IMG/VR virus record: IMGVR_UViG_647533110_000001
Length of the DNA: 64,000 bases
Strand: one strand, 5' to 3'
Origin: a virus
Taxonomy: Duplodnaviria > Heunggongvirae > Uroviricota > Caudoviricetes
A program made the translations under genes and the position numbers. Every line of letters begins with the position of its first letter. Position 1 is the stretch's first letter. The notes beneath the pieces are model-generated. The model saw only the letters and a program-made list of their open reading frames with translations, had not been told where the DNA came from and searched no databases. Below are positions 23,364-64,000 of the stretch, in pieces.

Positions 23364-24997
23364 AATTACTTTATATAGATTTATTTTGTGGTGCCGGTGG
23401 AACCAGCACAGGGGTAGAAAAAGCCCGTTTAGAGAATGAACAATGTGCTAAGGTAATAGCATGTGTAAATCATGATAAAAATGCGATTGCAAGTCATGCT
23501 GCTAATCATCCGGACGCTCTTCATTTTACAGAAGATATTCGTACACTAAATTTATCTCCTTTAGTTTCCCATCTACAAAAATGCAGAGCTGAATACCCTG
23601 AAGCATTGATAGTTTTATGGGCTTCGTTGGAATGTACTAATTTCTCGAAAGCTAAAGGTGGTCAACCACGAGATGCAGATAGTAGAACACTTGCAGAGCA
23701 CTTGTTTCGGTATATTGAGGCTATTAACCCAGACTATATTCAAATTGAGAATGTAGAAGAGTTTATGTCATGGGGAGATTTGGATGAGTACGGTAAACCC
23801 ATTAGTCGTGATAAAGGTAAATCTTATTTGAGATGGCTGGATAACGTAAGGTCTTATGGCTACAAATTTGAACATAAAATATTAAATTCAGCAGACTATG
23901 GGGCTTACACTTCTAGGAAGAGATTTTTCGGAATATTTGCGAAAGGGAGTTTACCTATTGTTTTTCCAGAGCAAACCCATTCTAAAAAGCCAGACCAAAA
24001 ATTAAAGAACTGGAAGGCAGTACGAGAAGTGTTAGACTTTGATGATGAAGGAAAAAGTATTTTTGGTCGGAAAACACCTTTAGTAGATTCTTCTTTATTA
24101 AGAATTTATGCAGGACTTATTAAGTTTGTAGCAGGTGGGAAAGATGCCTTCATGGTTAAGTATAACTCAATGAGTAAAGCTGGAAAGTACAATGCTCCGG
24201 GAGTTGAGGATCCATGTCCAGTAATATCTACTCAAAATCGACTTGGTGTTGCTTGCATAAACCGTTTAAATATTCTAACCGGAAAAGCATTTATTTCTGT
24301 TCATTATGGAAATGGATTTTGTAAATCTGTAGATGAACCAGCACCAACCGTAACAACAAAAGACCGATTTTCATTAATTTCTTCTGTGTTTATTGACCAA
24401 CAATACGGAAACAGTAAGCCTTCTTCACTGGATAAACCACTAGGCTGTATTACTGTTAATCCCAAATATAGCCTTGTAAGCTGTAAACCTTGGATTTTAG
24501 ATACAAATTTTAAGAATGTTGGCACAAGTATAAATCAACCGGCACCAGTAATTACCGCAAACCGTAAATGGCATTACTTGATGAATCCTCAATTTAATTC
24601 TGCTGGCGGATCTGTAGATAAACCTTGTTTTACGTTAATCGCTAGAATGGATAAGATGCCGCCATATTTGATTGAAGCATCTGGAGGGGGAGAGCTACCT
24701 GGCTTTATTAAGATGTTTCCAGAAGGATTGGTATATGAGATATATGACACAGATAGTGATGTAATGAAGAAAATAAAGGAATTCATGGCCATGTATGGAA
24801 TTTCCGACATAAAAATGAGAATGCTAACGATTCCAGAGTTGAAACGTATTATGGGATTCCCAGAAGATTATATGCTAATAGGAACAAAAGCAGAACAGAA
24901 AAAGTATATAGGAAACGCCGTAGAAGTTAATATGGCACGAGTTCTTTGTGAGGCATTATGTAAAATATTAGTAACAATGCAACGTAAGGTTGCGTAA
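23360..24997 (+). CDS. DNA (cytosine-5) methyltransferase, orphan
   Basis: motif I LFCGAGG, motif VI ENV, motif VIII SRKRFFGIF, motif X GNAV; motif IV reads SLECTNFS instead of PCQxFS. Confidence 0.75.
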   Translation: MKLLYIDLFCGAGGTSTGVEKARLENEQCAKVIACVNHDKNAIASHAANHPDALHFTEDIRTLNLSPLVSHLQKCRAEYPEALIVLWASLECTNFSKAKGGQPRDADSRTLAEHLFRYIEAINPDYIQIENVEEFMSWGDLDEYGKPISRDKGKSYLRWLDNVRSYGYKFEHKILNSADYGAYTSRKRFFGIFAKGSLPIVFPEQTHSKKPDQKLKNWKAVREVLDFDDEGKSIFGRKTPLVDSSLLRIYAGLIKFVAGGKDAFMVKYNSMSKAGKYNAPGVEDPCPVISTQNRLGVACINRLNILTGKAFISVHYGNGFCKSVDEPAPTVTTKDRFSLISSVFIDQQYGNSKPSSLDKPLGCITVNPKYSLVSCKPWILDTNFKNVGTSINQPAPVITANRKWHYLMNPQFNSAGGSVDKPCFTLIARMDKMPPYLIEASGGGELPGFIKMFPEGLVYEIYDTDSDVMKKIKEFMAMYGISDIKMRMLTIPELKRIMGFPEDYMLIGTKAEQKKYIGNAVEVNMARVLCEALCKILVTMQRKVA

Positions 24998-45643: not shown

Positions 45644-47026
45644 TCATTTCATCAACTCAACAACATCTTCCGGCAACATCGCATTCCCTGCATCATCTTT
45701 CGGAGCATTCTTAAGGAGCAACATCGGAACAATGGTATAGTTCTTGGCAAACGGCAATAAATTAGCCTTGCGAAGAAGTTCAGTTGTTAACTGTTTACCA
45801 TTCTCTTGATTTGTCCATTTACATTCTCCAACCAGCAGATATTTTTTATCAAGAGATTCAGCCATTACATCAAATTCCACTTGTTCAGGCTTCTTATCCT
45901 CATTGAGAACAGAACCCCACCAGCGTTTTGCCTTACCGTAAACAATTCCATTGACCATATTTCCCGTTACAGCATCCCTGCATAGTTTTTCCCAATGCAT
46001 ACTCACATACTCCGAGAAATGGGCTGCCAATGCCTGTTCTAATGGTAAACGACGACCAAGCTCGATGAACGAACGGTTAGGCACGACAAACTGATAGTAG
46101 AATGCCATAAAAGGGTCTGCAATCTTATATAGGCTCTTTTTTGCATTCTTTTCGTCAATTCCGAACGGAACATCTTTCTCTAAAAATCCGAGGTCAATAA
46201 GTTTCTTCAATGGACGTGACAGATTAGTTGCAGGCTCATTACATCTGGCAGCAATCTCAGAAAGACGATTTGCACCGGATCCGATATAGGACATGATTGT
46301 AGAAGTCTTGACAATGTCCTTCACATCATCTTGAAACAGTTTTATCGGCTCCTCGTAAAGAGTGCCATTTACAGAAAGGATATTGTGCCACAACGCATCG
46401 GAAAGTGAACTTCTGTTTTCTCGCAGTTCCCAGTAACGAGGCACACCGCCCCATACAGCATACTCTTCAACGGCACCCACAGCGTCAAGGTTCAAAGCCT
46501 CCTGAATATACGGCAAGCGTATAGGCATAAGTCTCATAATCTCATCAGCACGGCCATAGAGAGGTGCCGTAGAATCAAGAAACAGTCCATACATCATATT
46601 TTGCGATGAACCACAAAGTACAAGATTATACTTCAACTGCTTTTCATCAACAAATTTCTGCAACACTGACGGCAGTTCCGGGGATTGTTCCACCAGATAC
46701 GGAAATTCATCCAGGCATAGCGTGAAACGCTTGTCTGTGCGATAATTGACCGCACGAAACAGAGACTCCCAATCCGGATAAGTCAACTTGTCAAAATCAG
46801 GAAATACTTGTGCTACTACCTTTGCAAGTAAAGTCCTTTGGTGCTGTCCTTCCGAACGGTCAGCAAGGAAATATACATCACTGTCCGACAACACCCTTTT
46901 GATAAGTGTTGACTTACCCAATCGCCTGCGACCGTACACTACGACCAACGAGGACTTCTCTCTTGAAAGAGCATCCCTCAGTCGTGCTGTTTCTTCTATT
47001 CTATCAACGAAGTTCATATTCAACAT
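45644..47026 (-). CDS. AAA+ ATPase (Arch_ATPase/DUF234-type ATP-binding protein)
   Basis: Walker A GRRRLGKSTL; Walker B LCLDEFPYL. Confidence 0.7.
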   Translation of the reverse strand: MLNMNFVDRIEETARLRDALSREKSSLVVVYGRRRLGKSTLIKRVLSDSDVYFLADRSEGQHQRTLLAKVVAQVFPDFDKLTYPDWESLFRAVNYRTDKRFTLCLDEFPYLVEQSPELPSVLQKFVDEKQLKYNLVLCGSSQNMMYGLFLDSTAPLYGRADEIMRLMPIRLPYIQEALNLDAVGAVEEYAVWGGVPRYWELRENRSSLSDALWHNILSVNGTLYEEPIKLFQDDVKDIVKTSTIMSYIGSGANRLSEIAARCNEPATNLSRPLKKLIDLGFLEKDVPFGIDEKNAKKSLYKIADPFMAFYYQFVVPNRSFIELGRRLPLEQALAAHFSEYVSMHWEKLCRDAVTGNMVNGIVYGKAKRWWGSVLNEDKKPEQVEFDVMAESLDKKYLLVGECKWTNQENGKQLTTELLRKANLLPFAKNYTIVPMLLLKNAPKDDAGNAMLPEDVVELMK

Positions 47027-47109: not shown

Positions 47110-48900
47110 AATGTAAGGTAAGCGTCTCCAGGATGCCGTATCAGCATAAGAAAAGCAGGGTCACTGGCCCTGCTTGTTCTTTTTCCAGCGGTCTGGAAGT
47201 ATATCTCTGTACGCTTCCAGTGTGGCGGACCTCTGCAAGACATCCGCTCTGTTAAGTATGTCTGTGAGGTACTCGAAGAAGTTTATCTTGTGCAGCCTGC
47301 ATGAACATGCGAGAGAGTAGAAGATGCAGCCACGCTCTGCTCCGGCATGGCTGCCGAAGAAAAGGGAATTCTTTCTGGACAAGGATATGTACCTGTTGAT
47401 TCTCTCAATGAGATTATTGTCCCACGAGTAGTCTCCACCAGTAGTTATAGCTTCGATACCATCCCATTCGTTGAGCATGTATTTGGCGGCCTTGAACATC
47501 TGCGACTTTGGAGGATATTTCCGAGGTTGAGACTTGATCTTGAGAAGCATCTCCTTCATCTGCCTGAGTATATGAGACGCATACTCCTGTCGCCACCTCA
47601 GATTATCTTTGACCGTCCAGCCGTCTTCTCCGATCTTATGCTTATGTTCATTCTGATAGAGCTGATTGGCTAGAGTCAGTATCTTGTCTGCATCAGCATT
47701 GCCTTTCATGTCCAGGAACTCTCTCTTGCAATGCTGAAGACAGGCTAGTCTTAATATCTTTCCTCCGGACTGTGCTGCGACTTTCTTGTAAGCTCCCAGG
47801 CCATCTGACTGTATCGCTCCGCTATATCCCTTGAGCTCTTTCAGTATTACCTCTTCGCTTCTTGAACCATCATCATAGAAGAAGTATGCCAGGCCGAGAT
47901 GTGCTGCTACAATCACCCAGACATAACCCTTGCGGCTTCCCTTGCCGTCATTCAGTTCCTTCTTTACGAGAACTCTGTGGTAGGTCTCATCGCAGCAGAG
48001 ATAGTTATCTTCTTTGACTGCCTTCTGCATCGCCTTGTATAAGTTTTCGAACAGAAGTGCTGTCTTCTTCAGCAGCCCGTGAGCGGTCTGTTTGTCGATA
48101 TTGAAGCCGTTCTCGTTAAAGTACGCCACGATACGTTCCACCGGCATTGAGTACAGATAACGGAGCTGGGCTATGCCTGAGATGAACGACCCGTCGAAGC
48201 TGGAGTTCTGAAGAGGTGCAAGAGGAGCCTTTGCGCTTACAAGCTTATCTCCATCCTTTACTGTGTGGATATAATACAAGTGTTTGATGAACCTTGGAGG
48301 TATCATCTCATAGCGGACAGTCTCTCTTGTACTGAGCGGCTTCCGTCCTTCCATGCCGTCAGGATACACGTCATGCTTGACTGTCTCCATCTCGAAATGC
48401 ATATTACGCTTTGCACCATTGTTACCGCGGGACTTGCGCTCAACTTCCTTCTGAGCAATCTCTTCTTCTGTCTTAGGAGTTACTGGAGTAGATGCTTGTT
48501 TCTCTGACTTCTTCTCAAGAAGCTTTGACATGCCACGAACTTGATTGTTGGCCTTGTCGAGACTCTTGTCGCGTTCTTTCAGGAGAGACTCCAGATTCGC
48601 TATAGTCTCGCGAAGCTCTGAGATGGTCACGACCATGGCATTCATGCTGGCAGACATGTTGTCAATAGTGAGTCTCAGCTGATCGTTTGTCGCATTCGAC
48701 GCCTTCAGCCGAGACTCCAAAAGTTTGATTATCATGTCCTTTCCCATACATCTAAGGTACGAAGAAAAACGAGATATGTAATAGTTTTTAAGATTTATTT
48801 TATTGGTAATATTCTTAACCATCTTAAAAATATACACTTAAATATTTTATAATCAATATATTATAAGAAAGGTAATTTTAATGGAGAAACAAATAAGGAA
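47110..48900 (-). mobile_element. IS66-family insertion sequence, single ORF; boundaries approximate
   Basis: terminal GTAAGCG motif at ~47116 as in IS66 inverted repeats; opposite inverted repeat not found; no tnpA/tnpB ORFs. Confidence 0.45.
47161..48747 (-). CDS. IS66-family transposase
   Basis: N-terminal coiled coil; DETYHRV, GYVWV, DGLGAY and CLQHCKREF (zinc/H..RRxF) motifs; C-terminal DNNLIERINRYISLSRKNSLFFGSHAGA..YSL; start chosen at MGKDMII. Confidence 0.8.
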   Translation of the reverse strand: MGKDMIIKLLESRLKASNATNDQLRLTIDNMSASMNAMVVTISELRETIANLESLLKERDKSLDKANNQVRGMSKLLEKKSEKQASTPVTPKTEEEIAQKEVERKSRGNNGAKRNMHFEMETVKHDVYPDGMEGRKPLSTRETVRYEMIPPRFIKHLYYIHTVKDGDKLVSAKAPLAPLQNSSFDGSFISGIAQLRYLYSMPVERIVAYFNENGFNIDKQTAHGLLKKTALLFENLYKAMQKAVKEDNYLCCDETYHRVLVKKELNDGKGSRKGYVWVIVAAHLGLAYFFYDDGSRSEEVILKELKGYSGAIQSDGLGAYKKVAAQSGGKILRLACLQHCKREFLDMKGNADADKILTLANQLYQNEHKHKIGEDGWTVKDNLRWRQEYASHILRQMKEMLLKIKSQPRKYPPKSQMFKAAKYMLNEWDGIEAITTGGDYSWDNNLIERINRYISLSRKNSLFFGSHAGAERGCIFYSLACSCRLHKINFFEYLTDILNRADVLQRSATLEAYRDILPDRWKKNKQGQ

Positions 48901-52868: not shown

Positions 52869-53459
52869 TTAAGATAAAGCGTTCTTGACAATCTGCTTTT
52901 CTCGGATATAATCTACCATGTCCTCGGTAGCTTTTCCTGCCCGGGCTATATCTATAATGGTAATGAAGTTCTTTTGAGGATCATCCTGAATGCGTGTCAT
53001 CGCCTCTTCCCATGCCGAGTCATGCGACAAATCGGACAAGTCATAAGGGTCTGTATCCTTATATTTAGCGATAGCAGCGTCAAGACAACGTTTGTTGGCA
53101 CCTGATATATAGTCCATATCGGGTACGGCAGAAGTATATACCTTCTTGTCACGAACCTCTATGTCTGAAAGGAACTCGTCAAAATTCCCGTCCAAGGGTT
53201 TGCCTTCTGCAATTTGCAGTGCCTTGTAGGTATAGGCTGGCACCGGGCCATGCTTCAATGCTCTGAAAGAGTCTTCGACAATCACTTTGCCATATTTGAC
53301 AAGATGGTCCTGTTGGGCAAAATAAAGTATTTTAAATAACTTTATATAGTCCACTCCTTGAGTGAAACTCTGCATGATGTAGAGTACCACTGCTCTTATT
53401 TTAGCAATCTGTATAGCTGTTTTCATTTCAAAAAAATCTATGCGATTACAAAGATACAA
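52869..53459 (-). CDS. Panacea-domain (DUF4065) protein, putative antitoxin
   Basis: KLFKILYFAQQDHLVKYGKVIVEDSFRALKHGPVPAYTY matches the Panacea core KLxKLLYFA...AW.YGPV. Confidence 0.55.
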   Translation of the reverse strand: MYLCNRIDFFEMKTAIQIAKIRAVVLYIMQSFTQGVDYIKLFKILYFAQQDHLVKYGKVIVEDSFRALKHGPVPAYTYKALQIAEGKPLDGNFDEFLSDIEVRDKKVYTSAVPDMDYISGANKRCLDAAIAKYKDTDPYDLSDLSHDSAWEEAMTRIQDDPQKNFITIIDIARAGKATEDMVDYIREKQIVKNALS

Positions 53460-53965: not shown

Positions 53966-56900
53966 ATGAGTTACAACAAATTGAAATCATTGGTAGCGAA
54001 CGTGGAAGCCATAGAAACGGCAATGAAAATCCAAGTTCAAGGCAGGCAGGCCACTGCGGAAGAAAAAGAAATTTTATCCCGATATTCTGGTTTCGGGGGT
54101 ATCAAAGAAGTGTTGAATATAGGTACGGACAAGCCCATAGGTGGTGATATGCAAGAACCGATACAAAGATTGCAGGAGTTAATCAATGCTTACCCTCATT
54201 TCACAGAACCCATGCGACACAATGTCATAGAGGGTATCAAAGCATCTGTACTGACAGCATTTTACACTCCTAAATTCCTTGTTGATGCAGTGGTGCGGCA
54301 GATACACGCCACGTTCAGCGAAAACGGCCTCAAAATGCGTTCATTTCTCGAACCGAGTGCAGGTATAGGCGGTTTTCTGCCCATAGCCATGTCCGGCACG
54401 TATGGCTATGCCATTGAGAAAGATCTCATTTCGGGGATGATACTTTCCCTGCTCCATGAGAACACGCTAACACGGACGGCTGCATTTGAAACCATTGGAG
54501 AACAAGGTTTTGAGCATACAACTTTCGATGTCATAGCCTCCAACATCCCGTTTGGCAATTTCCGGGTATTCGATGCGGAGCTGTGGAAGAAAGGCGGTAT
54601 GTACGAACAGGCCACCAAGACCATACACAACTACTTTTTTGTCAAAGCGATGGAGTTGTTGAATGAGGGTGGATTATTGGCTTTCATCACATCGAGGGGC
54701 ATAGCCGACACGCCCGGTAACAAGTTCGTGCGTGAATATCTTGTAAATCATGCAGACCTGATAAGTGCAATCCGTCTGCCCGATATGCTTTTCATGCAGA
54801 CAAGCGGTATAGAGGTAGGCAGTGACCTGCTGATATTCCAAAAGCACACGCACAAGACGGTACTCTCACAACGGGAACAACTGTTTTTACAAGTAGGCAG
54901 GGAAAAGGCGGACGCCATAGGCACAATGACCGAATACGCCAACAAATTGTTTACCATGCCGAAAACTACCCTTGCAACAGGTAGCCGCATTGTACAGAAC
55001 CAATACGGAAAATATGTGCGCAAATACCAATGGCAGGGAAATGAAAATGCCATGTCGCAATATCTCGCCGCACTGCTGAAACTCGACTTTGGCCGATATT
55101 TCCGCAAAAGTCTTTTCACTGGGAACGGACAGGGCAGCGAACATATGCAAATGTCCCTTTTCGGGAATGTAGCGATGAAACAAGTAGAAAAAGGTAAACG
55201 AGCCTACACGGATGGGGTGGAAGCATGGATGAAAGACGGCGCAATGGTACTGTTTGAGGGCCAGGTGGGTACTATCCAATATCGAAAATCAAGTCTTTAT
55301 CAAGAGGTAGCCATTGATTTTGTGCCGGTGGACGAGGGTAAGGTCAATACAGATAGGGCGAAAGACTATTTTCCTATACGCAAAGCATACTTTGAACTGT
55401 CAATCAAAGAAAGGGAAGAACAAAAAGAGGATAACGGGTTGCGTAGAGAGTTGAACGCCCGATACGATGCCTTTGTTGCCAAATGGGGCTGTTTCCACGA
55501 GAACGACAACAAGGAGTTTATCATGCTTGACAGCCTCGGTGTGGAAGTCTTTACAATAGAAATGCAGCTTGGAAAGGATTTAGTCAAGTCCGATATCATG
55601 CGTGAACCTGTGGCGTTCAAGAAGATAGACTCGAACAAAAGGCTGACACCGATTGAAGCGTTGGCAAGCAGCTTGAATTTCTACGGCAGGGTTGATATGG
55701 ACTACCTGATGCAGTCCACGGACAGCACCGAGGAAGAAATCATCGGCGACCTCAAAGGTGAGATATTTTACAATCCTGCTATTGGGGAGTGGGAGCACAA
55801 AGGCAAGTTCCTTTCAGGCAATGTCATAACCAAATGCAAGGAGATAGGTTCTTACTTGTCCGAACTCACGGACAGGGAAAAAGATTGGACGGAAACTGCT
55901 GTAAGGGCTTTGGTGGATGCGACACCCGAAGCGATACCCTACGAGGAACTCGACATTAACATGGGTGAGCGTTGGATTGACACAAAGTTATACGCCGATT
56001 TTGCAACTGAACTTTTCAAGGTAGAGACAAGTGTAATGTATTTCGATGTGAACGACACCTACATGGTACGTCTGCAAAGTTACTCTCCGGTGGCTTACAA
56101 CACCTATTTCGTCCGCAACTATAATGGTGAGGATTTGTTTGTTCATGCCCTGCATGATACTGTACCCGAAATTACGAAAAAGATATACCGCAATGGTGAT
56201 AAGGTGCGTGTGCCGGACGAGGAAGCCATACAAGAGGCAGCCACCAAGATACAGGAGATTAGAGACCGTTTCAACTGCTGGCTTGACAGGCAGCCGATAG
56301 AGGTTCGGGACGAGCTGGTAAGGGTATATAACGAGCGTTTCAACTGCTATGTTAGGCCGCACTATGACGGTTCGGCACAAACCTTTCCGCAGCTCTCTTT
56401 TGAGCAATTTCCATACGATAGCCTCTATCCCTCACAGAAAGATGCTATCTGGATGATTAAGCAGAACGGAGGCGGTATCTGTTGGCATGAGGTAGGCACA
56501 GGCAAGACGATGATAATGTGTGTTGCCGCTTACGAAATGAAACGTCTCGGACTGGCACACAAGCCGCTTATTATCGGGCTGAAAGCCAATGTACACGAAA
56601 TCGCCGATACGTTCCGTAAGGCATACCCTACGGCCAAAGTTCTCTATCCGGGCAAGGACGATTTTACCGCTGCCAACAGGCAAGAGGTCTTTTTAAAAAT
56701 CAAGAACAACAACTGGGACTGCATCATACTCACGCACGACCAGTTCGCCAAGATACCGCAGTCAGAAGAGACCATGATAGATATATTCACGGAAGAGCTT
56801 GCCGATGTGGAACGTAACCTTGAATTTTTGGAGCAGTCCACTATGCGTTACCGTAGCGGAAAGATGCAGGAGGGGTTAGAAAAGCGCAAACAGAACCTTG

Positions 56901-57082
56901 GGGCTAAATTACAAGAACTGCGTATGAAAATCAATAATCGGAAAGACGATGCTGTGGACTTCCACACAATGGGAATAGACCATATTTTTGTAGATGAATC
57001 GCATTATCAGAACTTTTTTGAAAATTCGGCTTTTGTTGGTAAGATGTTAGTGTATAATATGTTACAATATTATATTTTCTGA
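53966..57082 (+). pseudogene. N6-DNA methylase/SNF2-helicase fusion gene, 5' part, interrupted by an insertion at ~57010
   Basis: MTase motif VIASNIPFGNF, helicase Walker A HEVGTGKTM and DESH; frame leaves homology right after DESH and stops; continuation resumes at 62994. Confidence 0.7.
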
Positions 57083-57418
57083 TTAATATCTATAGTAGGT
57101 TTGCAGAAGAAATTTAATTTGTTATTTTGGAAAGTACAGAGATTTACAATTCTATTATAAAATGGGGCTTTAATGCTTATCTATTGAATCATAAAAGCAT
57201 TTCCTCTAAAAGACAAAGGTAAGATAAATGCAATATCAAATTCAATAATCCCAACTTATGCTTGCATATTCCAAAGCATAAAACATACACTATGCTGATA
57301 GAAGGAATAAATAGTTCTTTCCACCAACTATTAATAGCAATCATCAATAAGACCTTAGGTTAAGAAAACAACTTAACAAAAAAACGAAATCAGCAATATT
57401 ATCTCAATCTATTTGTTT

Positions 57419-57979
57419 TTAGTGAACGATTAGATCTTTTGGAACAATTGCATCAATTTCATCTTCTTCTGTTGTTGATTCCTTGTTTGTTCTCAACGCT
57501 TTCTCAGCTCGTTTTACAGCAGCAGGAAAAGTATGAGGTGCTTTAATATACAGCAAATCTTCTTCCTCTCGTAATTCATTTCTTTTATCTACAATTTCAT
57601 TATCATTCAACAATCCGGCTAAAATATCTGTCATTAGAGATTCGTACTTATTCCTTAGGTCATGTAATTTTGCTGCAAAATTTTTGTTTAATTTAGCCTT
57701 TTCTTCAAGTTGTCCATCTTTATAGCGCACTGTAAAATAAGACAAAAGTATTGCTAAGAAAGCTGTAATTGATCCTGATATTTGAGGCTCGATAAAAGAT
57801 AATATGGAACTCAAAGCACCACCTGTCGTAAGGACAGACAACCAGCATGTAATATTTTTCACGCATCGATCTTTTTCAAGATATATATCCCCTTGAATCT
57901 CTTGAATTTTGTGTGACCACGTTACTTTAACATAACGTCCTTCTATACATTTATATAACAAACGAGTTGATTCATTCAT
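57419..57979 (-). CDS. 2-TM protein, candidate SLATT-like effector
   Basis: two adjacent TM helices (ITCWLSVLTTGGALSSIL / ITAFLAILLSYFTV) then charged helical tail; overlaps upstream gene stop. Confidence 0.45.
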   Translation of the reverse strand: MNESTRLLYKCIEGRYVKVTWSHKIQEIQGDIYLEKDRCVKNITCWLSVLTTGGALSSILSFIEPQISGSITAFLAILLSYFTVRYKDGQLEEKAKLNKNFAAKLHDLRNKYESLMTDILAGLLNDNEIVDKRNELREEEDLLYIKAPHTFPAAVKRAEKALRTNKESTTEEDEIDAIVPKDLIVH

Positions 57980-58571
57980 GATTTAATAATCTTTTTATTA
58001 GCATTCGTCTTAGTGGCTCAGACTTCAGATAGTTTCGGAGCTTAGACTTTGCAATTCCTATACCCAACTTTGACTTATACATTTTTCTGATACTTTCTAT
58101 GTCACCAATCTCAATGTAATATTCTATTCTTGCATCATCACCATGCCGTTCGGCAGGCCATGGTGCTTCATTATACCTCTCATAGTAGGCTACCCAATAG
58201 AAGAAAGAACTGAGATTTGAGACAAAACTTTGTAACTGAAATCCATGTGGATAATACTCTGAAAATTTTTCAGGTAGCCCCAGACACAAAGTTCCATCTA
58301 CATTGATATGCAAATCCCCATGAAAAATTTGTTTCCTTTGGGCAATCTTCTTTATCTTGTTATCAGGATTATAAACTATAGGATACTCATTCCTGTTTTT
58401 CATTCGCCACAGTCGTACCTCTATTTCAAAAGTTGCCTTAATAATAGGTTTACTTTCATAACGATGATTAATAAAGAAAGGTCCATGTATTATGGACTTT
58501 TCTTTATCATATGTGAGCATTGGATAATTATCCCTTAGCCAATTCTGTTCTTCTTCGTTGAGCCGAACCAT
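57972..58571 (-). CDS. hypothetical protein in NTase operon
   Basis: 199 aa, overlaps both neighbours. Confidence 0.45.
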   Translation of the reverse strand: MVRLNEEEQNWLRDNYPMLTYDKEKSIIHGPFFINHRYESKPIIKATFEIEVRLWRMKNRNEYPIVYNPDNKIKKIAQRKQIFHGDLHINVDGTLCLGLPEKFSEYYPHGFQLQSFVSNLSSFFYWVAYYERYNEAPWPAERHGDDARIEYYIEIGDIESIRKMYKSKLGIGIAKSKLRNYLKSEPLRRMLIKRLLNHE

Positions 58572-59476
58572 GGACGACTTGGATTTTGTTGAATATATAC
58601 TCCTTGATTTTCTCGTTTTGAATTCTCTTTCGTTTTAGGGAACTCTTCTCCAAAAATTTTAATCCATTCTTCTGATGCCTCCATAGGCTTATCGTTATCA
58701 TTGTATTCTAAAGCCTTTTGGGCACGATTAAATGCTTTGTCAATATAAGATTTAATACAATCATTACATCTTGAACGCATATAATCAAAAAAGTCGAATA
58801 CAATTTTATCGTATCCTATATTATTTGCTCCAGACGCATAGTTGGCATCCAAAAATGCTATTATATCATCCATCCTCTCACAAGATTTATAACTCATTGA
58901 AGGAGTATTGTGCGCCCACGCTTTAAGCATCTTGGCTAAATCACGCGTAAGACCAGAAGTTGCTTTATTGGATTCGTTAAACTTGTCTATTTCCATTCTA
59001 GGATCAAAATAATCCCACGAGCCACCATTCTCTGAGTTAGGAATAAGAAATGTCCCATCTTCTTTTTCCAAAGCAGGAAGAAGCTCTACATTATGATGGT
59101 TTTCTGCGAATTGCACGAGAACTACTTTACCCCAAGCTTTGATTTTGTCCGTAGTGGTATATTTCTCTTTTAACACGTCTTTTATTTCTTGAAGCAAAGC
59201 GCATTGTCCGTTACTCTTATAGCCATCATATTTTTTAAAAGTATCTTCAGGTATCTTGAATAGGACATCAATATCCTGTTCTTCTGTAAATGGCCGTACA
59301 TTTGTTTTGGTTTTATATGAACCAAATAGATACTTTTTACTACTATCATAAGCTCCTTCTCCATAGTAGAATTTGTAAAGCTTTTCACATACACCAGTAT
59401 ACTTTGTCTGTGCATCTTCTTGTTGACCAGATGTCAACGTGATGTTCGATAAAAAATCTTTGAATGAATTTTCCAT
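58535..59476 (-). CDS. SMODS/CD-NTase-like nucleotidyltransferase
   Basis: pol-beta NTase signature FGSYKTKTNVRPFTEEQDIDVLF (GS..x..DxD); 313 aa, the size of CBASS cyclases / SMODS. Confidence 0.55.
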   Translation of the reverse strand: MENSFKDFLSNITLTSGQQEDAQTKYTGVCEKLYKFYYGEGAYDSSKKYLFGSYKTKTNVRPFTEEQDIDVLFKIPEDTFKKYDGYKSNGQCALLQEIKDVLKEKYTTTDKIKAWGKVVLVQFAENHHNVELLPALEKEDGTFLIPNSENGGSWDYFDPRMEIDKFNESNKATSGLTRDLAKMLKAWAHNTPSMSYKSCERMDDIIAFLDANYASGANNIGYDKIVFDFFDYMRSRCNDCIKSYIDKAFNRAQKALEYNDNDKPMEASEEWIKIFGEEFPKTKENSKRENQGVYIQQNPSRPWFGSTKKNRIG

Positions 59477-59659
59477 TAAGAATCGTTTTTAATTTTATTA
59501 AAAAATAGCAAATTTCGTGCCAACACATTAACATATTTAGAATTTCAGACATAAGAAAGGACTCTTTGTCTGATTGGCACAATTTAGTTGGAATATCAGA
59601 CAAAGTGTCCTCATAGGTTAGGGAAATATGCCAACTAAGAATATTTAAAAGTATAAGAA

Positions 59660-60718
59660 TCAGTCGGCTGCCCCAATTAGAGGTAATCCAAGAAATTCTT
59701 CAAGTCCCCCTTTGTTAGCCATTTTCCATCTTTTTTGTAACTTCCTTTGATCTTCATTTTCGAGTGTCTCTAACGCTTTTGATTCCTGTTCGGTTGTTAT
59801 GTCCAAATATACCATTGTCGTTTGGATACATTCATGTCCGAGTAGATACGATATTTGTGCTATATTCATGCCATTTTCGAGCCAATGTGAGGCTTTGGCA
59901 TGTCGGAACTGATGGGCATGCAGATTCAAGGGTACTTCTTTACATATTTTTTTCGCTATTGCGGCATACCGCTTCAATAGTTTATTCACATTCTCGGCAG
60001 ACATTGGTACGTAAATCCCCCTGCTTTTGGAATAGAACAAAAGGGCATCCGGATTATTGGGATTCGGATGGCATTCCGCAAGGTATTGTTTTATGTACTG
60101 TACTGGTTTGGCCAAAAGTGGTATAGGACGCTTTTTTCTGCCTTTTCCGATAACGATAATTCGCGGTTTCGGACCATCTGTAAAAATATTGCCAATTTTC
60201 AAAGAAAGGAGTTCGTTAATACGGACTGCCGTAGAATACAAGGTCAGCATTAGGGTATAGTCTCTGAGACCGCGAATCGTCCTCTGGTTGGGAACTGTGA
60301 AAAGGGCATTCACGGCCATCTTGCTAAGCCCCACGACTTTTCTCTTGGGTGTTTTCTGATTAGGCACTGTCTCTGCCTGAAGATAGGAAGTCATAAACGC
60401 TATGTCTTTATCAGCCATATATTTTAGGAAGGCTCTTAGTGCCGACAGCCTTACATTACATGTTGCAGGGCTGCAAGACCTGTGTTCTTTTAACCATAGA
60501 ATCCATTCATTCATGTTTTCTAAAGAAAAGCACTGGGCACTCAATGTCTTCGGAGAGATCTGCTTGACACTCCTCAAAAACATCACATAAAGTGCCACTG
60601 AAGTTTCGTAGTTTCTTTTGGTATAAGGACTGCATGCCTTTATTGATGGCACGTGGTATTCAAGCCATTCATTCAGGTATTTTGCAATTAGCAATGCTTG
60701 TGGATTAATCTTTTTCAT
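59660..60718 (-). CDS. tyrosine recombinase (RIT trio, third)
   Basis: R (AVRINELLSL), HAHQFRH, LGHECIQTTMVY with catalytic Tyr. Confidence 0.8.
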   Translation of the reverse strand: MKKINPQALLIAKYLNEWLEYHVPSIKACSPYTKRNYETSVALYVMFLRSVKQISPKTLSAQCFSLENMNEWILWLKEHRSCSPATCNVRLSALRAFLKYMADKDIAFMTSYLQAETVPNQKTPKRKVVGLSKMAVNALFTVPNQRTIRGLRDYTLMLTLYSTAVRINELLSLKIGNIFTDGPKPRIIVIGKGRKKRPIPLLAKPVQYIKQYLAECHPNPNNPDALLFYSKSRGIYVPMSAENVNKLLKRYAAIAKKICKEVPLNLHAHQFRHAKASHWLENGMNIAQISYLLGHECIQTTMVYLDITTEQESKALETLENEDQRKLQKRWKMANKGGLEEFLGLPLIGAAD

Positions 60719-61712
60719 ATTGCGTATTGGGTATTAGAAATTCATACATTTCTGCATCAGCAGATTCTATAATATCGGAGATTCCCGGTGTCAAGGAGTA
60801 ATAGGCCATTGTACTTTCCACCTGCTTATGTCCCATGCTTTTGCTCAAGGCCAGTAACTTGTCATGAACTGTAAATCCCTGATGATTCCAACTATTGATA
60901 TTCTCGATAGCATAATTGTGTCTTAATTCATAGGGTATGGCTTTGGAACTATTGCAACTTTTCCATAAAACTCTAAAGTGGTATGTTACCCAGGCAGGAG
61001 AATGTGCCTTGTCATCCAGAGTAGGGAAAAAGTACTCACGATTTGGAAGTATATCTGATATTCTGTCATTGTAAATATGCATTAGCAAAAGCATCGTGTC
61101 ATGAAGTACGACAAAATGCTGGTCATATCCTTTTCCTGACTTTATTGACACGACTCCACTTTCAAGGTTTACATCATCGCGTTTAAGCCTTATGGCCTCA
61201 GTTGTCCTCATCCCTGAACTATACAGTAAGCGGAAAAAAACCGGAAGCGTTATCCTCTGTATTGTCGACAGGATACCTTTTCTTGGTTTTATATTGTCAC
61301 AGGCAGTGAAAAATCTAATCAGTTCTTCATGCGTGAAGGCGTGAGGTATATAAGTTTTTGGTGATGACTTCGGTACTGGCGGAAGAGTTATATGGGTCTT
61401 TCCTCGTTTTTTTAGGTATTTGAACAAGTCAAGCACGGGATAAATCCTGGATACACATGAGTTTGTGCTCTCGGTTTCCCGCTGTTTGCACCATCTATCT
61501 GCTATTTCTTGAGTCAGTTCCGTATGTCCGGGATATTCTCTGGCACAAAAATGATCGAATAATACCACGTTTTTCACATAACTGTAGCTTGTACGTCCTG
61601 ATATCTTACGGTATCTGATATATCCTTCGATGGAATTGGCAAGAAATGATTGTAACTTCATTGATAAAACACCTCCTTTCTCACTGGGTAATTTTCTATG
61701 CTTAGGGCACAT
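60705..61712 (-). CDS. tyrosine recombinase (RIT trio, second)
   Basis: MRTTEAIRLKRDDV, YELRHNYAI, MGHKQVESTMAYY; overlaps both flanking recombinase genes. Confidence 0.75.
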   Translation of the reverse strand: MCPKHRKLPSEKGGVLSMKLQSFLANSIEGYIRYRKISGRTSYSYVKNVVLFDHFCAREYPGHTELTQEIADRWCKQRETESTNSCVSRIYPVLDLFKYLKKRGKTHITLPPVPKSSPKTYIPHAFTHEELIRFFTACDNIKPRKGILSTIQRITLPVFFRLLYSSGMRTTEAIRLKRDDVNLESGVVSIKSGKGYDQHFVVLHDTMLLLMHIYNDRISDILPNREYFFPTLDDKAHSPAWVTYHFRVLWKSCNSSKAIPYELRHNYAIENINSWNHQGFTVHDKLLALSKSMGHKQVESTMAYYSLTPGISDIIESADAEMYEFLIPNTQYEKD

Positions 61713-62872
61713 TCTTTGAGGCTTTTAAACTCGGCATTAAGATAAGGATTAAGAGACTTTGGGGAGGCATGTCCCAGCGTGGAGCTTATTACAGGCTGTT
61801 GGACTCCGGCTCGAAGCAATGATGTTGCCACATGATGGCGGAAAAGGTGTAATCCCTTCCTTTCAGAGGCTTTGAGCCTTATACCAGCCTTATGCATGAT
61901 TTTTACACATATTGCATTAAGATTGGATGTATGGAGCTTTCTATATGGAGAATTCACAGTAAGGAATACGTATGGTTCATAGCACTTAGGGCGTTCCTCT
62001 ACCAGATAATCATAGATAGCATTGCCAACAACAGCTCTAAGCGGTAGTGTTAATGCCGTTCCTGTTTTCGATTGGGTAATAATAATCAGGTCTCCTTCCC
62101 AATCAAAATCTTTCATAGTCAATGCCGATATATCGCAGCTACGCAGTCCTGTGTACAATGCAATGGTCGCAATAGCTTTGTCCTGTAGAGATATGGTCTT
62201 ATCATGTTCCAACACATGCTTTATTGCCTCGATCTCAGCTTCAGTAAGGTACTGTATGTTCTTTCTACTATTCGGTATGGTGGGCAGGTATGACATTATA
62301 TGTTCTATAATGCCATCATTGTAGTAAGGGACACATTTTTTCAATCCATATTCCACACTATATTTAAATGAATGACTTCTTATCGGTATATCATTTGGGG
62401 AAAACACCATTTGAACGGCTTCCTCATCTATAGCATCCAAGGAGTTTATTCCATATTTCTGTAAAGTTAAAAAGAACGAACTCATGGCTACTTTAATGGT
62501 TGGAACCATTTTTGTGTCTTTTCCAATGAATTTACATGCTATGTCCACGACTTTCATAAACTCTTCACATAGCTGATGGTAGTTGGATGGCTTGTGATAG
62601 TGTTTGTGTCCATCAGGTAAAGAAGCTTCCTCATCATAACGCTGAATGATACGGAGCAAACGGCTTTTATTGGCAAAAGTATGTTTGTTGTGCCATAACT
62701 TCGCTAACGTATGCTCTATATCAGCATAATTTTGCCATTCGTAACACATGGAGTTGCTTACAATCCACTTGGTTAAGTGGTTGATGTACCATATATATTG
62801 GGAAGTGTAACCAACTTCCTTCATATAGGCAACAAGACCAATAACTTTTTCTTTTAAATGCAGTATATCCAT
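61658..62872 (-). CDS. tyrosine recombinase (RIT trio, first)
   Basis: LRSCDISALTMKDF, LHLFRHHVATSLL, LGHASPKSLNPY. Confidence 0.8.
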   Translation of the reverse strand: MDILHLKEKVIGLVAYMKEVGYTSQYIWYINHLTKWIVSNSMCYEWQNYADIEHTLAKLWHNKHTFANKSRLLRIIQRYDEEASLPDGHKHYHKPSNYHQLCEEFMKVVDIACKFIGKDTKMVPTIKVAMSSFFLTLQKYGINSLDAIDEEAVQMVFSPNDIPIRSHSFKYSVEYGLKKCVPYYNDGIIEHIMSYLPTIPNSRKNIQYLTEAEIEAIKHVLEHDKTISLQDKAIATIALYTGLRSCDISALTMKDFDWEGDLIIITQSKTGTALTLPLRAVVGNAIYDYLVEERPKCYEPYVFLTVNSPYRKLHTSNLNAICVKIMHKAGIRLKASERKGLHLFRHHVATSLLRAGVQQPVISSTLGHASPKSLNPYLNAEFKSLKECALSIENYPVRKEVFYQ

Positions 62873-62993
62873 AACACATTAATATTAGTGACACGGGTAA
62901 TATACAAAAATAATCAGAACTTATCATGATATTAATTTGCCGATTTTTAGTAACATCAAATACAAAAATGGTATAATAAAAAAGTTCTGATAA

Positions 62994-64000
62994 TGCGACA
63001 AATCCAAAATTCCGGATTTATCGCATATTTTCAAGAACTTAATGTTCCAGACACGCCATAATCGTGTGGCAGGTATCGGCAACACCAAAGGCTCTCAAAG
63101 GGCAATGAACCTCTTGTTCGCCATTCGTGACATCCAACTTCGTACAGGTCGTGACCTTGGGGCTACGTTTCTGTCGGGTACAGTGGTGGTAAATGCACTG
63201 ACCGAACTATATGTGATGTTCAAGTATTTGCGTCCGCAGGAGCTTCAACGGCAACGGATTAGCTGTTTCGATGCGTGGGCAGCCATATTCACAAAGAAAA
63301 CGGCAGATTATGAGTTGAACGTGACAGGCTCGGTGAAGCGCAAAGAGCGTTTTCGTACTTACATCAAAGTACCGGAACTGGCAATGTTCCTGCGTGAGAT
63401 TACGGATTACCGTACAGCCGACATGATAAATCTTGATGTGCCTGAGAAGAACGTGCGTTTCCTTTCTTATCCCCCGACAATTGAGCAGGAGGAAATGATA
63501 GGACGCTTGGTATCTTTTGCCGGTAGCGGCCAGTGGGAGGACTTGGGGCTTGACGTTCCGCAACCCGACAACCTCGACAAGGCTAAAATGTTGGTTGCGA
63601 CCAATGTAGCCCGAAAAATGGCTCTTGATATGCGCTTGTTGGGTTGCAAGTTCAAGGATGATGCCGATAACAAGGCTTCTATCTGTGCGAGGACAATCTA
63701 TGACTACTATATACGCTCGAATGACAATCGGGGTACACAGTTCGTGTTCAGCGACCTTGGTACATACAAACCGAACGAATGGAACATATATACCGACATC
63801 AAAGAAAAGTTGGTACGGCTCGGTATTCCTGCTGATGAAATACAGTTTATCCAATGCGCCACTACCGAGAGGACAAGAAAAAAGCTGTTTGAAGAAATGA
63901 ATAACGGCAAGGTGCGAGTTCTTTTTGGAAGTACGACCATGTTAGGCACAGGTGTGAACGCCCAACAAAGGGCTGTGGCGGTGCATCACCTTGAAATACC
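62994..64000 (+). pseudogene. methylase/SNF2-helicase gene, 3' continuation, runs off window
   Basis: open frame: ...SHIFKNLMFQTRHNRVAGIGNTKGS...FSDLGTY...VRVLFGSTTMLGTGVNAQQRAVAVHHLEIP (helicase C-terminal motifs). Confidence 0.65.

What the first reader, a model, noticed from the sequence alone, without database searches (positions are those of the whole stretch)
57010..62998. RIT-like element (three tandem overlapping tyrosine recombinases) bounded by perfect 21-bp inverted repeats and carrying cargo
Three adjacent tyrosine-recombinase genes on the minus strand (61658..62872, 60705..61712, 59660..60718) overlap by about 55 and 14 bp. All three carry R...HxxR...Y active-site boxes. This is the defining architecture of Recombinase-In-Trio elements. 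The unit is bounded by TCGCATTATCAGAACTTTTTT (57010..57030) and its exact reverse complement (62978..62998). Classical RIT elements are described as carrying only the trio. This one additionally carries three cargo genes (57419..59476), making it a possible vehicle for a defence module.
Basis: partly seen in the sequence, partly recalled or inferred. Interest (0 to 1): 0.65.

Follow-up and report, generated by a model that had tools for sequence, protein, structure and literature searches.

The report
Defence-carrying recombinase-trio mobile element
A 6-kb mobile element, driven by three tyrosine recombinases of the little-studied RIT family and carrying a CBASS anti-phage module, has inserted precisely into a helicase motif of a methylase-helicase gene; copies and relatives elsewhere show where and how this family inserts.

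Summary
Window 57002..63023 (6,022 bp) is a mobile element of the Recombinase-In-Trio (RIT) family. It encodes ritA (61658..62872), ritB (60705..61661, ORF to 61712) and ritC (59660..60718), all on the minus strand. Each groups with canonical RitA/B/C of Cupriavidus pHG1. It also carries a three-gene CBASS: cyclase, E2-like protein and SLATT 2TM effector.

The left repeat lies at 56999..57019, not 57010..57030. Only 18 bp (CATTATCAGAACTTTTTT) belong to the element; the outer 3 bp vary with the insertion site. A 28-bp palindromic linker (62996..63023) also belongs to the element.

The element splits an N6-methylase/helicase gene exactly at DESH|IFKN. Removing it restores the ORF, and a 99.7%-identical empty allele exists.

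Copies 99.4-100% identical sit at three other sites, in both orientations. Relatives (52-88% RitA identity) carry other defence cargo (PDC-M49, Bub-like, TIR) or none. Nearly all sit in the same helicase motif, in genes that in several loci neighbour conjugative-element genes.

Junction comparison implies three things:
- an excised circle with a 64-bp palindromic junction;
- crossover at NNN|CAY on either arm;
- a 4-bp footprint carried between sites.

This is a known family with a new cargo-bearing, target-specific variant. The circle and the recombinase activity are inferred, not shown.

The parts
53966..57001 (+). Upstream half of the interrupted N6-adenine methylase / SF2 helicase gene. 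It ends ...GIDHIFVDES. The ORF then reads into the element and stops at 57082.
   Evidence: Pfam N6_Mtase, Eco57I and ResIII. Joining 57001 to 63024 gives an uninterrupted ORF.
56998..57001 (.). Variable 4-mer (A TCG) at the left junction: the third base of the Glu codon plus the Ser codon of DESH. This is the inferred heterologous part of the strand-exchange region.
   Evidence: The 99.7%-identical empty allele L045 differs only here, reading G TGC. The same repertoire of 4-mers flanks the linkers of other copies.
57002..57019 (+). Terminal inverted repeat, cargo-side end: CATTATCAGAACTTTTTT.
   Evidence: A cargo-less Alistipes RIT contig begins and ends exactly with this sequence.
57069..57085 (.). 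Sub-terminal repeat (ATTATATTTTCTGATTA). It is inverted relative to the nearby terminal repeat and pairs with 62911..62927. Possible accessory binding site.
   Evidence: Repeat pair I16. A similar AATCAG(A/G)A motif lies 70-85 bp from the cargo-side end in four other lineages. Significance is moderate.
57419..57979 (-). CBASS effector, a SLATT_4 two-transmembrane protein (186 aa).
   Evidence: Pfam SLATT_4 1.4e-37. NCBIfam SLATT_4 2.5e-38. PADLOC 2TM effector 1.4e-42.
57972..58571 (-). E2-like (short Cap2-type) protein (199 aa).
   Evidence: No Pfam or NCBIfam hit. PADLOC E2 model 2.2e-21 over residues 8-166.
58535..59476 (-). CBASS oligonucleotide cyclase (CD-NTase/SMODS, 313 aa). GS...DID motif at FGSYKTKTNV...DIDVLF.
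   Evidence: Pfam SMODS 3.9e-28. NCBIfam CBASS_cyclase_b 1.2e-25, below that model's cutoff. PADLOC cyclase 2.8e-58.
59660..60718 (-). ritC (352 aa).
   Evidence: 134 bits to pHG1 RitC, against at most 42 to RitA/B. The C-terminal tail aligns with that of canonical RitC. RitC clade in the NJ tree.
60705..61661 (-). ritB (318 aa from the conserved Met; the ORF extends to 61712).
   Evidence: 112 bits to pHG1 RitB, against at most 30 to RitA/C. Alignment. RitB clade.
61658..62872 (-). ritA (404 aa).
   Evidence: 106 bits to pHG1 RitA, against at most 27 to RitB/C. The AF2 model shows two helical N-terminal modules before the catalytic domain. RitA clade.
62911..62927 (.). Sub-terminal repeat (TAATCAGAACTTATCAT) about 84 bp inside the ritA-side end, inverted relative to the terminal repeat.
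   Evidence: The same position holds a copy in the 85%-related cargo-less element L053.
62978..62995 (-). Terminal inverted repeat, ritA-side end (reads CATTATCAGAACTTTTTT on the minus strand).
62996..63023 (.). 28-bp linker CGA-CAAATCC-AAAATTCC-GGATTTA-TCG. It has 7-bp inverted arms, an 8-bp asymmetric spacer and a variable triplet on each side. It belongs to the element and always lies next to the downstream half of the target.
   Evidence: The only match to YAAATCC-N8-GGATTTR in the window. It is present in all related elements, on either end. Analogous palindromic linkers occur in the pHG1, Priestia and Rhizorhabdus RITs.
63024..64000 (+). Downstream half of the interrupted helicase gene. 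It resumes CAT ATT TTC AAG AAC = HIFKN and runs off the window.
   Evidence: Homologues span the junction without interruption.

Best explanation
Window 57002..63023 is a 6,022-bp integrative element of the Recombinase-In-Trio (RIT) family. Besides ritA-ritB-ritC it carries a CBASS anti-phage operon: cyclase, E2-like protein and SLATT 2TM effector. It has integrated by conservative site-specific recombination into the DExH-box coding sequence (motif II, ...VDES|HIFKN...) of a large N6-methylase/helicase gene. In several related loci that gene neighbours genes typical of Bacteroidales conjugative elements.

Shown here:
- family membership;
- the exact boundaries;
- the precise interruption and the existence of an empty allele;
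- near-identical copies at other sites in both orientations;
- the preference of this RIT lineage for the same helicase motif;
- varied defence cargo, or none, between ritC and the far end in relatives.

Inferred mechanism:
1. The element excises as a circle. Its ends are joined through the 28-bp linker, giving a 64-bp near-perfect palindrome with 28-bp arms and an 8-bp asymmetric spacer.
2. Either arm can pair with the target GAYGA-RNNN|CAY-NNN-TTYAAG. This is why the element is found in both orientations, with the linker always next to the downstream half of the target.
3. Strand exchange spans about 6 bp (RNNN+CA). Only CA is shared by donor and target.
4. The 4-bp RNNN is therefore carried from one site to the next as a footprint.

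The cargo presumably protects the host, and so the carrying conjugative element, against phage. Homing into a conserved gene of conjugative elements would give a non-conjugative element a route for horizontal spread.
For: Family:
- Positional orthology to pHG1 RitA/B/C and three clean clades.
- A 4-bp and a 14-bp gene overlap.
- The RitA model has two helical modules (residues 1-85 and 97-195) before the catalytic domain. Solved tyrosine recombinases align over only about 300 of its 404 residues.
- The RitC tail is conserved with canonical RitC.
- The same end architecture, inverted repeat plus palindromic linker, occurs in the pHG1, Priestia and Rhizorhabdus RITs.

Insertion:
- Deleting 57002..63023 restores ...GIDHIFVDESHIFKNLMFQTRHN....
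- The empty allele L045 is 99.7% identical in both flanks and differs only in the 4-mer.

Mobility:
- The exact RitA protein is listed in 564 index blocks.
- Copies 99.4-100% identical lie in three different helicase-gene alleles and in a SusC-like gene, in both orientations.
- There are 16 distinct left junctions and 16 distinct right junctions. Of these, 14 and 13 respectively lie in DE[S/C]H|xFKN.

Circle with two usable arms:
- In four element lineages the spacer has the same orientation relative to the element interior whether the linker is on the ritA side or the cargo side.
- In-situ inversion would flip the spacer.

Footprint:
- The 4-mers beside the linkers (A TCG, G TGC, G AGC, A TCA and others) are the same set as the Glu-third-base plus Ser/Cys codons at target left junctions.

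Cargo:
- CBASS here.
- PDC-M49.
- Bub-like system plus CapH/CapP-like regulators.
- TIR-SLOG plus ThsB-like proteins.
- No cargo in L001 and L053.
Against: - No circular junction was recovered. The two metagenome contigs that contain the predicted junction sequence are two different RITs in tandem, not circles.
- No experiment shows that any RIT transposes (PMC10214605).
- RitB lacks the first His of HxxR, so not all three proteins need be catalytic.
- In the window both junction 4-mers are A TCG, while the empty allele has G TGC. A simple heteroduplex model predicts one donor and one target version.
- Most related loci are short-read metagenome contigs. Their left and right flanks may be mis-joined across the repeat, so only single junctions are safe evidence.
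- The NJ tree has no bootstrap support.
- The AF2 models are of moderate confidence (pLDDT 76 and 82). The RitC tail is below 70.
- CBASS function is inferred from homology only.
- I did not find transfer genes in the part of the window I scanned.
Confidence: 0.8

Rival explanations
1. Same element, different chemistry. It does not move through a double-stranded circle. [quoted passage not shown]
For: - The inferred junction folds as a 64-nt hairpin of -25.6 kcal/mol, z = -13.5.
- Nielsen et al. saw exonuclease-protected RIT DNA but could not map circular junctions, and proposed hairpin intermediates (PMC5737581).
- No circle was found in assemblies.
- Footprint copying is also a trait of Tn554 and SEs (PMC10214605).
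Against: - Moving the linker from one end of the element to the other with its orientation preserved requires that the two ends be joined at some stage.
- An empty allele exists, although it could simply never have been occupied.
Confidence: 0.15
2. The inverted repeats and recombinases form an in-situ invertible (phase-variation or shufflon-like) switch that controls the methylase-helicase gene, not a mobile element.
For: - Inverted repeats flank the segment and one lies inside a coding sequence.
- The spacer orientation differs between the 88%-related lineages g1 and g2. Inversion between the arms may therefore occur occasionally.
Against: - Neither orientation of the segment would complete the helicase ORF.
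- The same element, 99.8% identical, sits in an unrelated SusC-like gene (L003) and in other alleles.
- An empty allele exists.
- Within each lineage the spacer orientation is the same for both insertion orientations.
Confidence: 0.03
3. The trio belongs to another multi-recombinase family (Tn554-like, SE/GInt, or Gamma-Mobile-Trio) rather than to RIT.
For: - A weak NCBIfam hit of RitA to recomb_GmtY: 31 bits against a cutoff of 340.
- Footprint copying resembles Tn554 and SEs.
- GMT islands are also rich in defence genes (bioRxiv 10.1101/2023.03.28.534373).
Against: - All three genes are tyrosine recombinases of 318-404 aa, orthologous one-to-one to RitA/B/C.
- There is no long TnpB-like protein, and no TnpC, Srap, Tfp or GinC/D-like fourth gene. 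The only other genes are CBASS components.
Confidence: 0.02

Closest known systems
RIT (Recombinase In Trio) elements of Cupriavidus metallidurans CH34 / C. necator pHG1 (Van Houdt 2009, 2012; Ricker 2013)
   Same: - ritA-ritB-ritC order on one strand with short overlaps.
- One-to-one orthology.
- Terminal inverted repeats with an overlapping palindrome at one end (PMC3414803).
- Identical copies at several sites.
- Earlier reports of insertion inside genes of other mobile elements: radC of a Tn4371-like ICE and a Tn6049 transposase.
   Different: - Classical RITs are about 3.5 kb and carry only the trio. This one is 6.0 kb, with a CBASS operon between ritC and the far end.
- The host is a gut Bacteroidales genome, not an alpha- or betaproteobacterium.
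- RitB has YxxR instead of HxxR.
- Target specificity, use of both orientations and the 4-bp footprint were not described for RITs in the papers I could read. Target specificity and movement are listed there as not tested.
[quoted passage not shown]
   Same: - Several recombinase genes.
- Site-specific insertion.
- A short stretch from the previous location is carried into the new junction. This is 6 bp in SEs and Tn554 (PMC10214605) and 4 bp here.
   Different: - The protein sets differ: TnpA/B/C, or IntA/Tfp/IntB/Srap.
- From my own knowledge, not tested here: Tn554 lacks terminal inverted repeats and inserts in one preferred orientation.
- The element here has inverted repeats, a palindromic linker and two insertion orientations.
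CTnDOT IntDOT recombination (Bacteroides)
   Same: By inference, strand exchange tolerates heterology in most of the overlap region and needs only a short identical stretch at one end. That stretch is CA here. For IntDOT the exchanges are ordered, one homology-dependent and one homology-independent (abstracts of PMC2034462 and PMC2817482).
   Different: - IntDOT is a single integrase with arm-type sites.
- IntDOT has no palindromic attP and no trio.
- The analogy concerns mechanism only and was not tested here.
Gamma-Mobile-Trio (GMT) islands
   Same: A three-gene mobility module associated with varied defence cargo (bioRxiv 10.1101/2023.03.28.534373).
   Different: - As I recall, not checked here: only GmtY is a tyrosine recombinase.
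- RitA scores 31 bits against a cutoff of 340.
- GMT islands are gammaproteobacterial and have different boundaries.
Type II-short CBASS (cyclase + E2-only + 2TM effector)
   Same: The gene content and order match PADLOC cyclase, E2 and 2TM models and Pfam SMODS and SLATT_4.
   Different: It is carried as the sole cargo of a RIT. Activity was not tested.

Membership tests
RIT element | Three adjacent, same-strand tyrosine recombinase genes with short overlaps (4-8 bp in the canonical set). | tested here: met
   All three match Pfam Phage_integrase. The ritA/ritB overlap is 4 bp (ATGA) from the conserved Met18 of RitB. The ritB/ritC overlap is 14 bp, the same as in the Priestia RIT.
RIT element | The three proteins fall into the RitA, RitB and RitC families, in that gene order. 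| tested here: met
   BLASTP against two pHG1 trios gave 106/112/134 bits to the matching protein and at most 42 to the non-matching ones. The NJ tree has three clades, without bootstrap.
RIT element | A possible catalytic motif is present in all three proteins. | tested here: met
   RitA and RitC have R...HxxR...H...Y. RitB has R169, K194, Y-E-L-R264-H265, H295 and Y304. Its first His of HxxR is replaced by Tyr in the Bacteroidales and Priestia RitB proteins.
RIT element | RitA has two sequential core-binding domains (Smyshlyaev 2021, PMC8138268). | tested here: met
   The AF2 model (pLDDT 76) shows helical modules at residues 1-85 and 97-195, separated by a low-confidence linker, before the catalytic domain at about residue 208. 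PDB tyrosine recombinases align over about 300 columns only. Confidence is moderate.
RIT element | RitC has an extra conserved C-terminal helix (PMC8138268). | tested here: inconclusive
   A tail of about 45 residues follows the catalytic Tyr304. It is strongly conserved and aligns with the tail of canonical RitC. AF2 predicts helices at 309-316 and 339-342, but with pLDDT of about 40-70.
RIT element | Terminal inverted repeats (28-34 bp reported) with an overlapping palindrome at one end. | tested here: met
   There are 18-bp perfect repeats and a 28-bp palindromic linker. The same layout occurs in the pHG1, Priestia and Rhizorhabdus RITs.
RIT element | About 3.5 kb, with the trio as the only genes (descriptive trait of classical RITs). 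| tested here: not met
   The element is 6,022 bp and has three extra genes. Cargo-less relatives of 3,475 and 3,494 bp exist.
RIT element | Moves as a unit: near-identical copies at different sites. | tested here: met
   Copies 99.4-100% identical lie at four different sites, the window's among them. An empty allele exists.
CBASS (type II-short) | CD-NTase cyclase, E2-only Cap2-like protein and an effector in one operon. | tested here: met
   PADLOC cyclase 2.8e-58, E2 2.2e-21 and 2TM effector 1.4e-42. Pfam SMODS and SLATT_4. The genes overlap by 37 and 8 bp.
CBASS (type II-short) | Confers phage resistance through nucleotide signalling. | not testable with these tools
   Homology only.
Gamma-Mobile-Trio | GmtY, GmtZ and GmtX proteins. 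| tested here: not met
   The best hit to recomb_GmtY is 31 bits against a cutoff of 340. No other Gmt model hit.
Tn554 / SE / GInt | A long second recombinase together with TnpC (Tn554), or a fourth conserved non-recombinase gene (Tfp/GinC, Srap/GinD in SEs and GInts). | tested here: not met
   The element holds only three recombinases of 318-404 aa plus CBASS genes.

The most novel reading that the evidence does not exclude
In gut Bacteroidales, RIT elements are a widespread and so far undescribed class of small defence-gene shuttles. They carry CBASS, PDC-M49, Bub-like or TIR/Thoeris-like cargo, or none. They home into the DExH-box codons of the methylase-helicase gene of conjugative elements.

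They do this through a palindromic attachment site with two equivalent crossover points, so they can enter in either orientation. They pick up and deposit a 4-bp footprint. That footprint rewrites the Glu-Ser/Cys codons of the helicase motif in both the element and, on excision, the target.

If this is right, the natural series of junctions gives the first concrete and testable recombination model for the whole RIT family. Canonical proteobacterial and Priestia (Bacillota) RITs show the same end architecture.
Probability: 0.55. Interest if true: 0.75.

Novelty: new variant of a known kind. Interest (0 to 1): 0.68.

Why it matters
RIT elements have been known since 2009. According to a 2023 review table, their movement and target specificity have never been tested (PMC10214605).

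This element and its relatives supply what was missing:
- exact ends;
- a defined target of about 25 bp;
- an empty site;
- many independent insertions in both orientations;
- a footprint that marks the strand-exchange region.

Together these turn an obscure family into an experimentally tractable system.

The relatives also show that a small recombinase-only element can act as an exchangeable carrier for anti-phage systems in abundant human-gut bacteria. It appears to spread by lodging in a conserved gene of conjugative elements. That bears on how defence genes move between Bacteroidales, and on the annotation of 'broken' methylase-helicase genes in their conjugative elements.

Tried and rejected
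1. A genome-contig scan with RitA gave only two loci. One was useful: the Alistipes cargo-less RIT. The other is a 24%-identical unrelated recombinase.
2. L004 looked like a cargo-less copy with a group II intron. It is a scaffold with an N at the breakpoint, so I discarded it.
3. A metagenome scan for the predicted circular junction found L050 and L051. These turned out to be two different RITs (83% identical) in tandem, not a circle.
4. In L047 a CBASS with a NucC effector lies next to an 82%-related RitC. No cargo-side repeat was found within 11 kb, so it is not counted as confirmed cargo.
5. Loci with a linker on both sides (L017, L021, L038) may be rearrangements or mis-joined metagenome contigs. 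They were not used for orientation arguments.
6. Megablast of the element against the plasmid and phage collections gave no match.
7. Ricker et al. 2013, the main RIT survey, is not held in the library and could not be read. Whether it mentions passenger genes is unknown to me.
8. Literature searches for RITs or recombinase trios in Bacteroides, or with defence cargo, found nothing relevant.
9. A Pfam scan of 20 other window ORFs did not identify transfer genes. The conjugative-element context therefore rests on related loci.
10. The in-situ inversion and phase-switch reading was rejected on spacer orientation and on copies in unrelated genes.

Full report
**1. Check of the observation**

The three minus-strand ORFs are at the stated coordinates: 61658..62872 (404 aa), 60705..61712 (335 aa) and 59660..60718 (352 aa). 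All three match Pfam Phage_integrase. The three cargo ORFs lie at 57419..59476.

The 21-mer TCGCATTATCAGAACTTTTTT occurs exactly twice in the window, in inverted orientation, at 56999..57019 and 62978..62998. No shuffle of the window gave two matches.

RitA and RitC have R...HxxR...Y. RitB has Y-E-L-R instead of H-x-x-R and keeps the other catalytic positions. The Met conserved in all RitB homologues is residue 18 of the ORF. With that start, ritA and ritB overlap by 4 bp (ATGA), not 55 bp.

**2. What the element sits in**

The 1,038-aa ORF at 53966..57082 is an N6-adenine methylase fused to an SF2 helicase (N6_Mtase, Eco57I, ResIII). It reads ...GIDHIFVDESH and then runs into the element and stops. 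On the far side the same frame resumes at 63024 with HIFKNLMFQTRHN... and runs off the window.

Joining 57001 to 63024 gives a continuous ORF of more than 1,337 codons through the helicase DExH box. Many database homologues span this junction without interruption.

One of them, contig L045, is 99.7% identical to both flanks. At the site it reads GTAGATGAG-TGC-CAT-ATTTTCAAGAAC. It differs from the window only in four bases: G TGC there, A TCG here. The inserted DNA is therefore 57002..63023, which is 6,022 bp.

**3. Family**

RIT elements are defined by three adjacent, overlapping tyrosine recombinase genes, ritA, ritB and ritC. They are about 3.5 kb long, with an inverted repeat of about 28-34 bp and an overlapping palindrome (PMC3414803; PMC10214605). 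I took two intact trios from pHG1 of Cupriavidus necator, the plasmid named as RIT-rich in that work.

Evidence for membership:
- The window proteins score 106, 112 and 134 bits against the RitA, RitB and RitC of one trio, and at most 42 against the non-matching proteins.
- Trios from Cupriavidus oxalaticus, Rhizorhabdus and Priestia plasmids give the same pattern.
- An NJ tree of 31 proteins gives three clades, each holding one window protein with the canonical members. It has no bootstrap.
- RitA is reported to have two core-binding domains and RitC an extra C-terminal helix (PMC8138268).
- The RitA model (pLDDT 76) shows helical modules at 1-85 and 97-195 before the catalytic domain. Solved recombinases align over only about 300 of its 404 residues.
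- RitC has a conserved tail of about 45 residues that aligns with the canonical tail. Its predicted helices have low confidence.

**4. Cargo**

The 313-aa protein is a CD-NTase/SMODS cyclase. The 199-aa protein matches only PADLOC E2 models (2e-21). The 186-aa protein is a SLATT_4 two-transmembrane effector. This gene set corresponds to a type II-short CBASS. Function is inferred from homology only.

**5. Other copies and relatives**

The exact RitA protein is listed in 564 blocks of the assembly index.

Copies 99.4-100% identical to the window element lie:
- in the same gene allele (L007, L008, L009; two are NCBI isolate assemblies, one of them a complete genome);
- in another allele, antiparallel to the gene (L005);
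- in a third allele, parallel to the gene (L006, L010-L012);
- in a SusC-like receptor gene (L003).

Relatives, by RitA identity to the window protein:

| Lineage | RitA identity | Cargo |
|---|---|---|
| g2 | 88% | same CBASS |
| g3 | 62% | PDC-M49 A+B (E 1.7e-250) |
| g4 (listed in 517 index blocks) | 52% | BubE, ThiF-type E1, Multi_ubiq, sigma factor, CapH/CapP-like pair |
| E2 of L051 | not computed | TIR-SLOG protein plus two ThsB-like TIR proteins |
| P0047 group | 53% | AraC-type regulator |
| L053 (3,494 bp) | 85% | none; same kind of target |
| L001 (Alistipes contig, 3,475 bp) | 55% | none; contig begins CATTATCAGAAC... and ends ...GTTCTGATAATG |

The last row fixes the element ends at CAT...ATG. 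The cargo always lies between ritC and the far repeat. L053 and the window element are 85% identical through the trio and then share only the terminal repeat.

**6. Target**

From all loci I extracted 16 distinct left junctions and 16 distinct right junctions. Fourteen left junctions read G-I-D-H-x-F-x-D-E-[S/C] up to the element. Thirteen right junctions resume H-x-[F/Y]-K-N-L-x-F.

The non-helicase sites keep part of the pattern:
- L003: gatga-CAAC|CAC-atc-ttcaag.
- L039: tacga-CAGA|CAT-tgt-tttaag.

The working consensus is GAYGA-RNNN|CAY-NNN-TTYAAG.

In related loci the target gene sits beside DUF4099/DUF3945, a Toprim topoisomerase, DUF1896 and, in L032, a T4SS coupling protein. From general knowledge this is the neighbourhood of Bacteroidales conjugative elements. 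I did not find transfer genes in the part of the window I scanned.

**7. Junction anatomy and the inferred mechanism**

Every element has one 28-bp linker outside one of its ends: NNN-YAAATCC-N8-GGATTTR-NNN. It lies on the ritA side when the element is antiparallel to the target gene, and on the cargo side when it is parallel. It is therefore always next to the downstream half of the target.

In four lineages the 8-bp spacer has the same orientation relative to the element interior in both situations (g1 GGAATTTT; g2 and g3 AAAATTCC; g4 AAACTTTC). In-situ inversion of the interior would flip the spacer. Integration of a form whose two ends are joined through the linker would not.

That joined form is a 64-bp palindrome with 28-bp arms and an 8-bp spacer. 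As a single strand it would fold at -25.6 kcal/mol. Either arm offers the same site, GGATTT-RNNN|CAT-TATCMGAAC.

The apparent crossover is always between NNN and CAY. Where donor and target differ at the third base, the left junction has the donor T and the right junction the target C (L006).

The four bases RNNN beside the linkers are drawn from the same set as the target left junctions: A TCG, G TGC, A TGC, G AGC, A AGC and A TCA. These are the third base of the Glu codon plus a Ser or Cys codon. They are therefore a record of earlier targets.

I infer an exchange region of about 6 bp (RNNN+CA) in which only CA must match. Heteroduplex in RNNN would then be settled by replication or repair. 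This resembles two known cases:
- the 6-bp footprint of Tn554 and SEs (PMC10214605);
- the heterology-tolerant exchange of IntDOT (abstracts of PMC2034462 and PMC2817482).

Steps shown: the boundaries, the target, both orientations, the linker rule and the variable 4-mers. Steps inferred: the circle, the cleavage positions and the roles of the three proteins.

**8. The same architecture in canonical RITs**

- In pHG1 the left repeat is preceded by TAGCGC-AAATGTGCTGCAGCACATTT-, an inverted copy of the outermost repeat bases plus a 20-bp palindrome.
- In the Priestia RIT the right repeat is followed by AAATCCAAACGTTTGGATTT-GTTGAC.
- In the Rhizorhabdus RIT it is followed by a 26-bp palindrome and a 7-bp direct repeat.

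Van Houdt et al. noted 'sequence variation at the ends' and an 'overlapping palindromic sequence' without explaining them. The model above would account for both.

**9. What did not work, and caveats**

- A scan of metagenome contigs for the predicted junction found two contigs. They hold two different RITs in tandem at one helicase site, not a circle. They do show that an occupied site can be used again.
- Most related loci are short-read metagenome contigs. These may be mis-joined across a repeat of 6-8 kb, so I relied on single junctions.
- In the window both 4-mers are A TCG, although the empty allele has G TGC. The simple model does not predict this.
- Ricker et al. 2013 could not be read.
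- The literature searches cover open-access papers and bioRxiv only.

**10. Verdict**

The element is a member of a known family (RIT) and a new variant of it. It bears cargo, lives in gut Bacteroidales, has a defined helicase-motif target and two insertion orientations, and leaves a footprint. In the papers I could read, none of these traits is described for RITs.

Confidence is about 0.8 in the identity and about 0.55 in the full mechanistic and ecological reading.

Noticed in passing
L005-L012, L024, L025, L030, L034 (e.g. L006 17560..19227): A group II intron reverse transcriptase (RVT_N/RVT_1/GIIM, 555 aa) sits inside the same methylase-helicase gene, downstream of the RIT site. The gene is therefore a landing site for at least two kinds of mobile element.
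   Followed up: no
L051 83..10833 (also L050): Two different RITs (83% identical) lie in tandem at one helicase site. One is a cargo-less 3,483-bp element. The other is a 7,240-bp element with a TIR-SLOG protein and two ThsB-like TIR proteins. A linker follows each. This is a possible route to cargo exchange.
   Followed up: partly
L015 1124..8552 (Rhizorhabdus wittichii pDC04): A canonical-type RIT with 93-bp inverted repeats splits a plasmid gene annotated 'methylase'. The two halves carry AAA_34 and Helicase_C_4 (Strawberry-notch-type helicase). The insertion is at ...PREYV|IDYLER..., with a 7-bp direct repeat CATATTC.
   Followed up: partly
window 60705..61712 (RitB residue 261); L001, L013, L023, L031: RitB of the Bacteroidales and Priestia RITs has Tyr where the proteobacterial RitB has the first His of HxxR.
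   Followed up: partly
L017/L021 and L038: One element is flanked by a linker on both sides, and both flanks are 'downstream' target halves. This is either a rearrangement between two copies or a chimeric metagenome assembly across the repeat.
   Followed up: no
window 15426..16694 (+): A 422-aa ORF with a reverse transcriptase domain (RVT_1, 4e-20). It is not next to an obvious intron maturase and could be a defence-type or retron-type RT.
   Followed up: no
window 47161..48837 (-), 45644..47026 (-), 23360..24997 (+), 52869..53459 (-): An IS66-family transposase, an ATPase_2/DUF234 protein, a C5 cytosine methylase and a SocA/Panacea-domain protein. The region around the finding is rich in mobile and accessory genes.
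   Followed up: no
L047 3761..7693: A full type II CBASS (cyclase, E1-E2, JAB, NucC-type endonuclease) lies directly after a RitC that is 82% identical to the window's. No cargo-side repeat was found in the 11-kb contig, so it is unproven as RIT cargo.
   Followed up: partly
window 56998..57001 versus L045 1496..1499 and L020: Otherwise identical helicase alleles differ only in the Glu-third-base plus Ser/Cys codon (DESH versus DECH). RIT visits may rewrite a residue of helicase motif II.
   Followed up: partly
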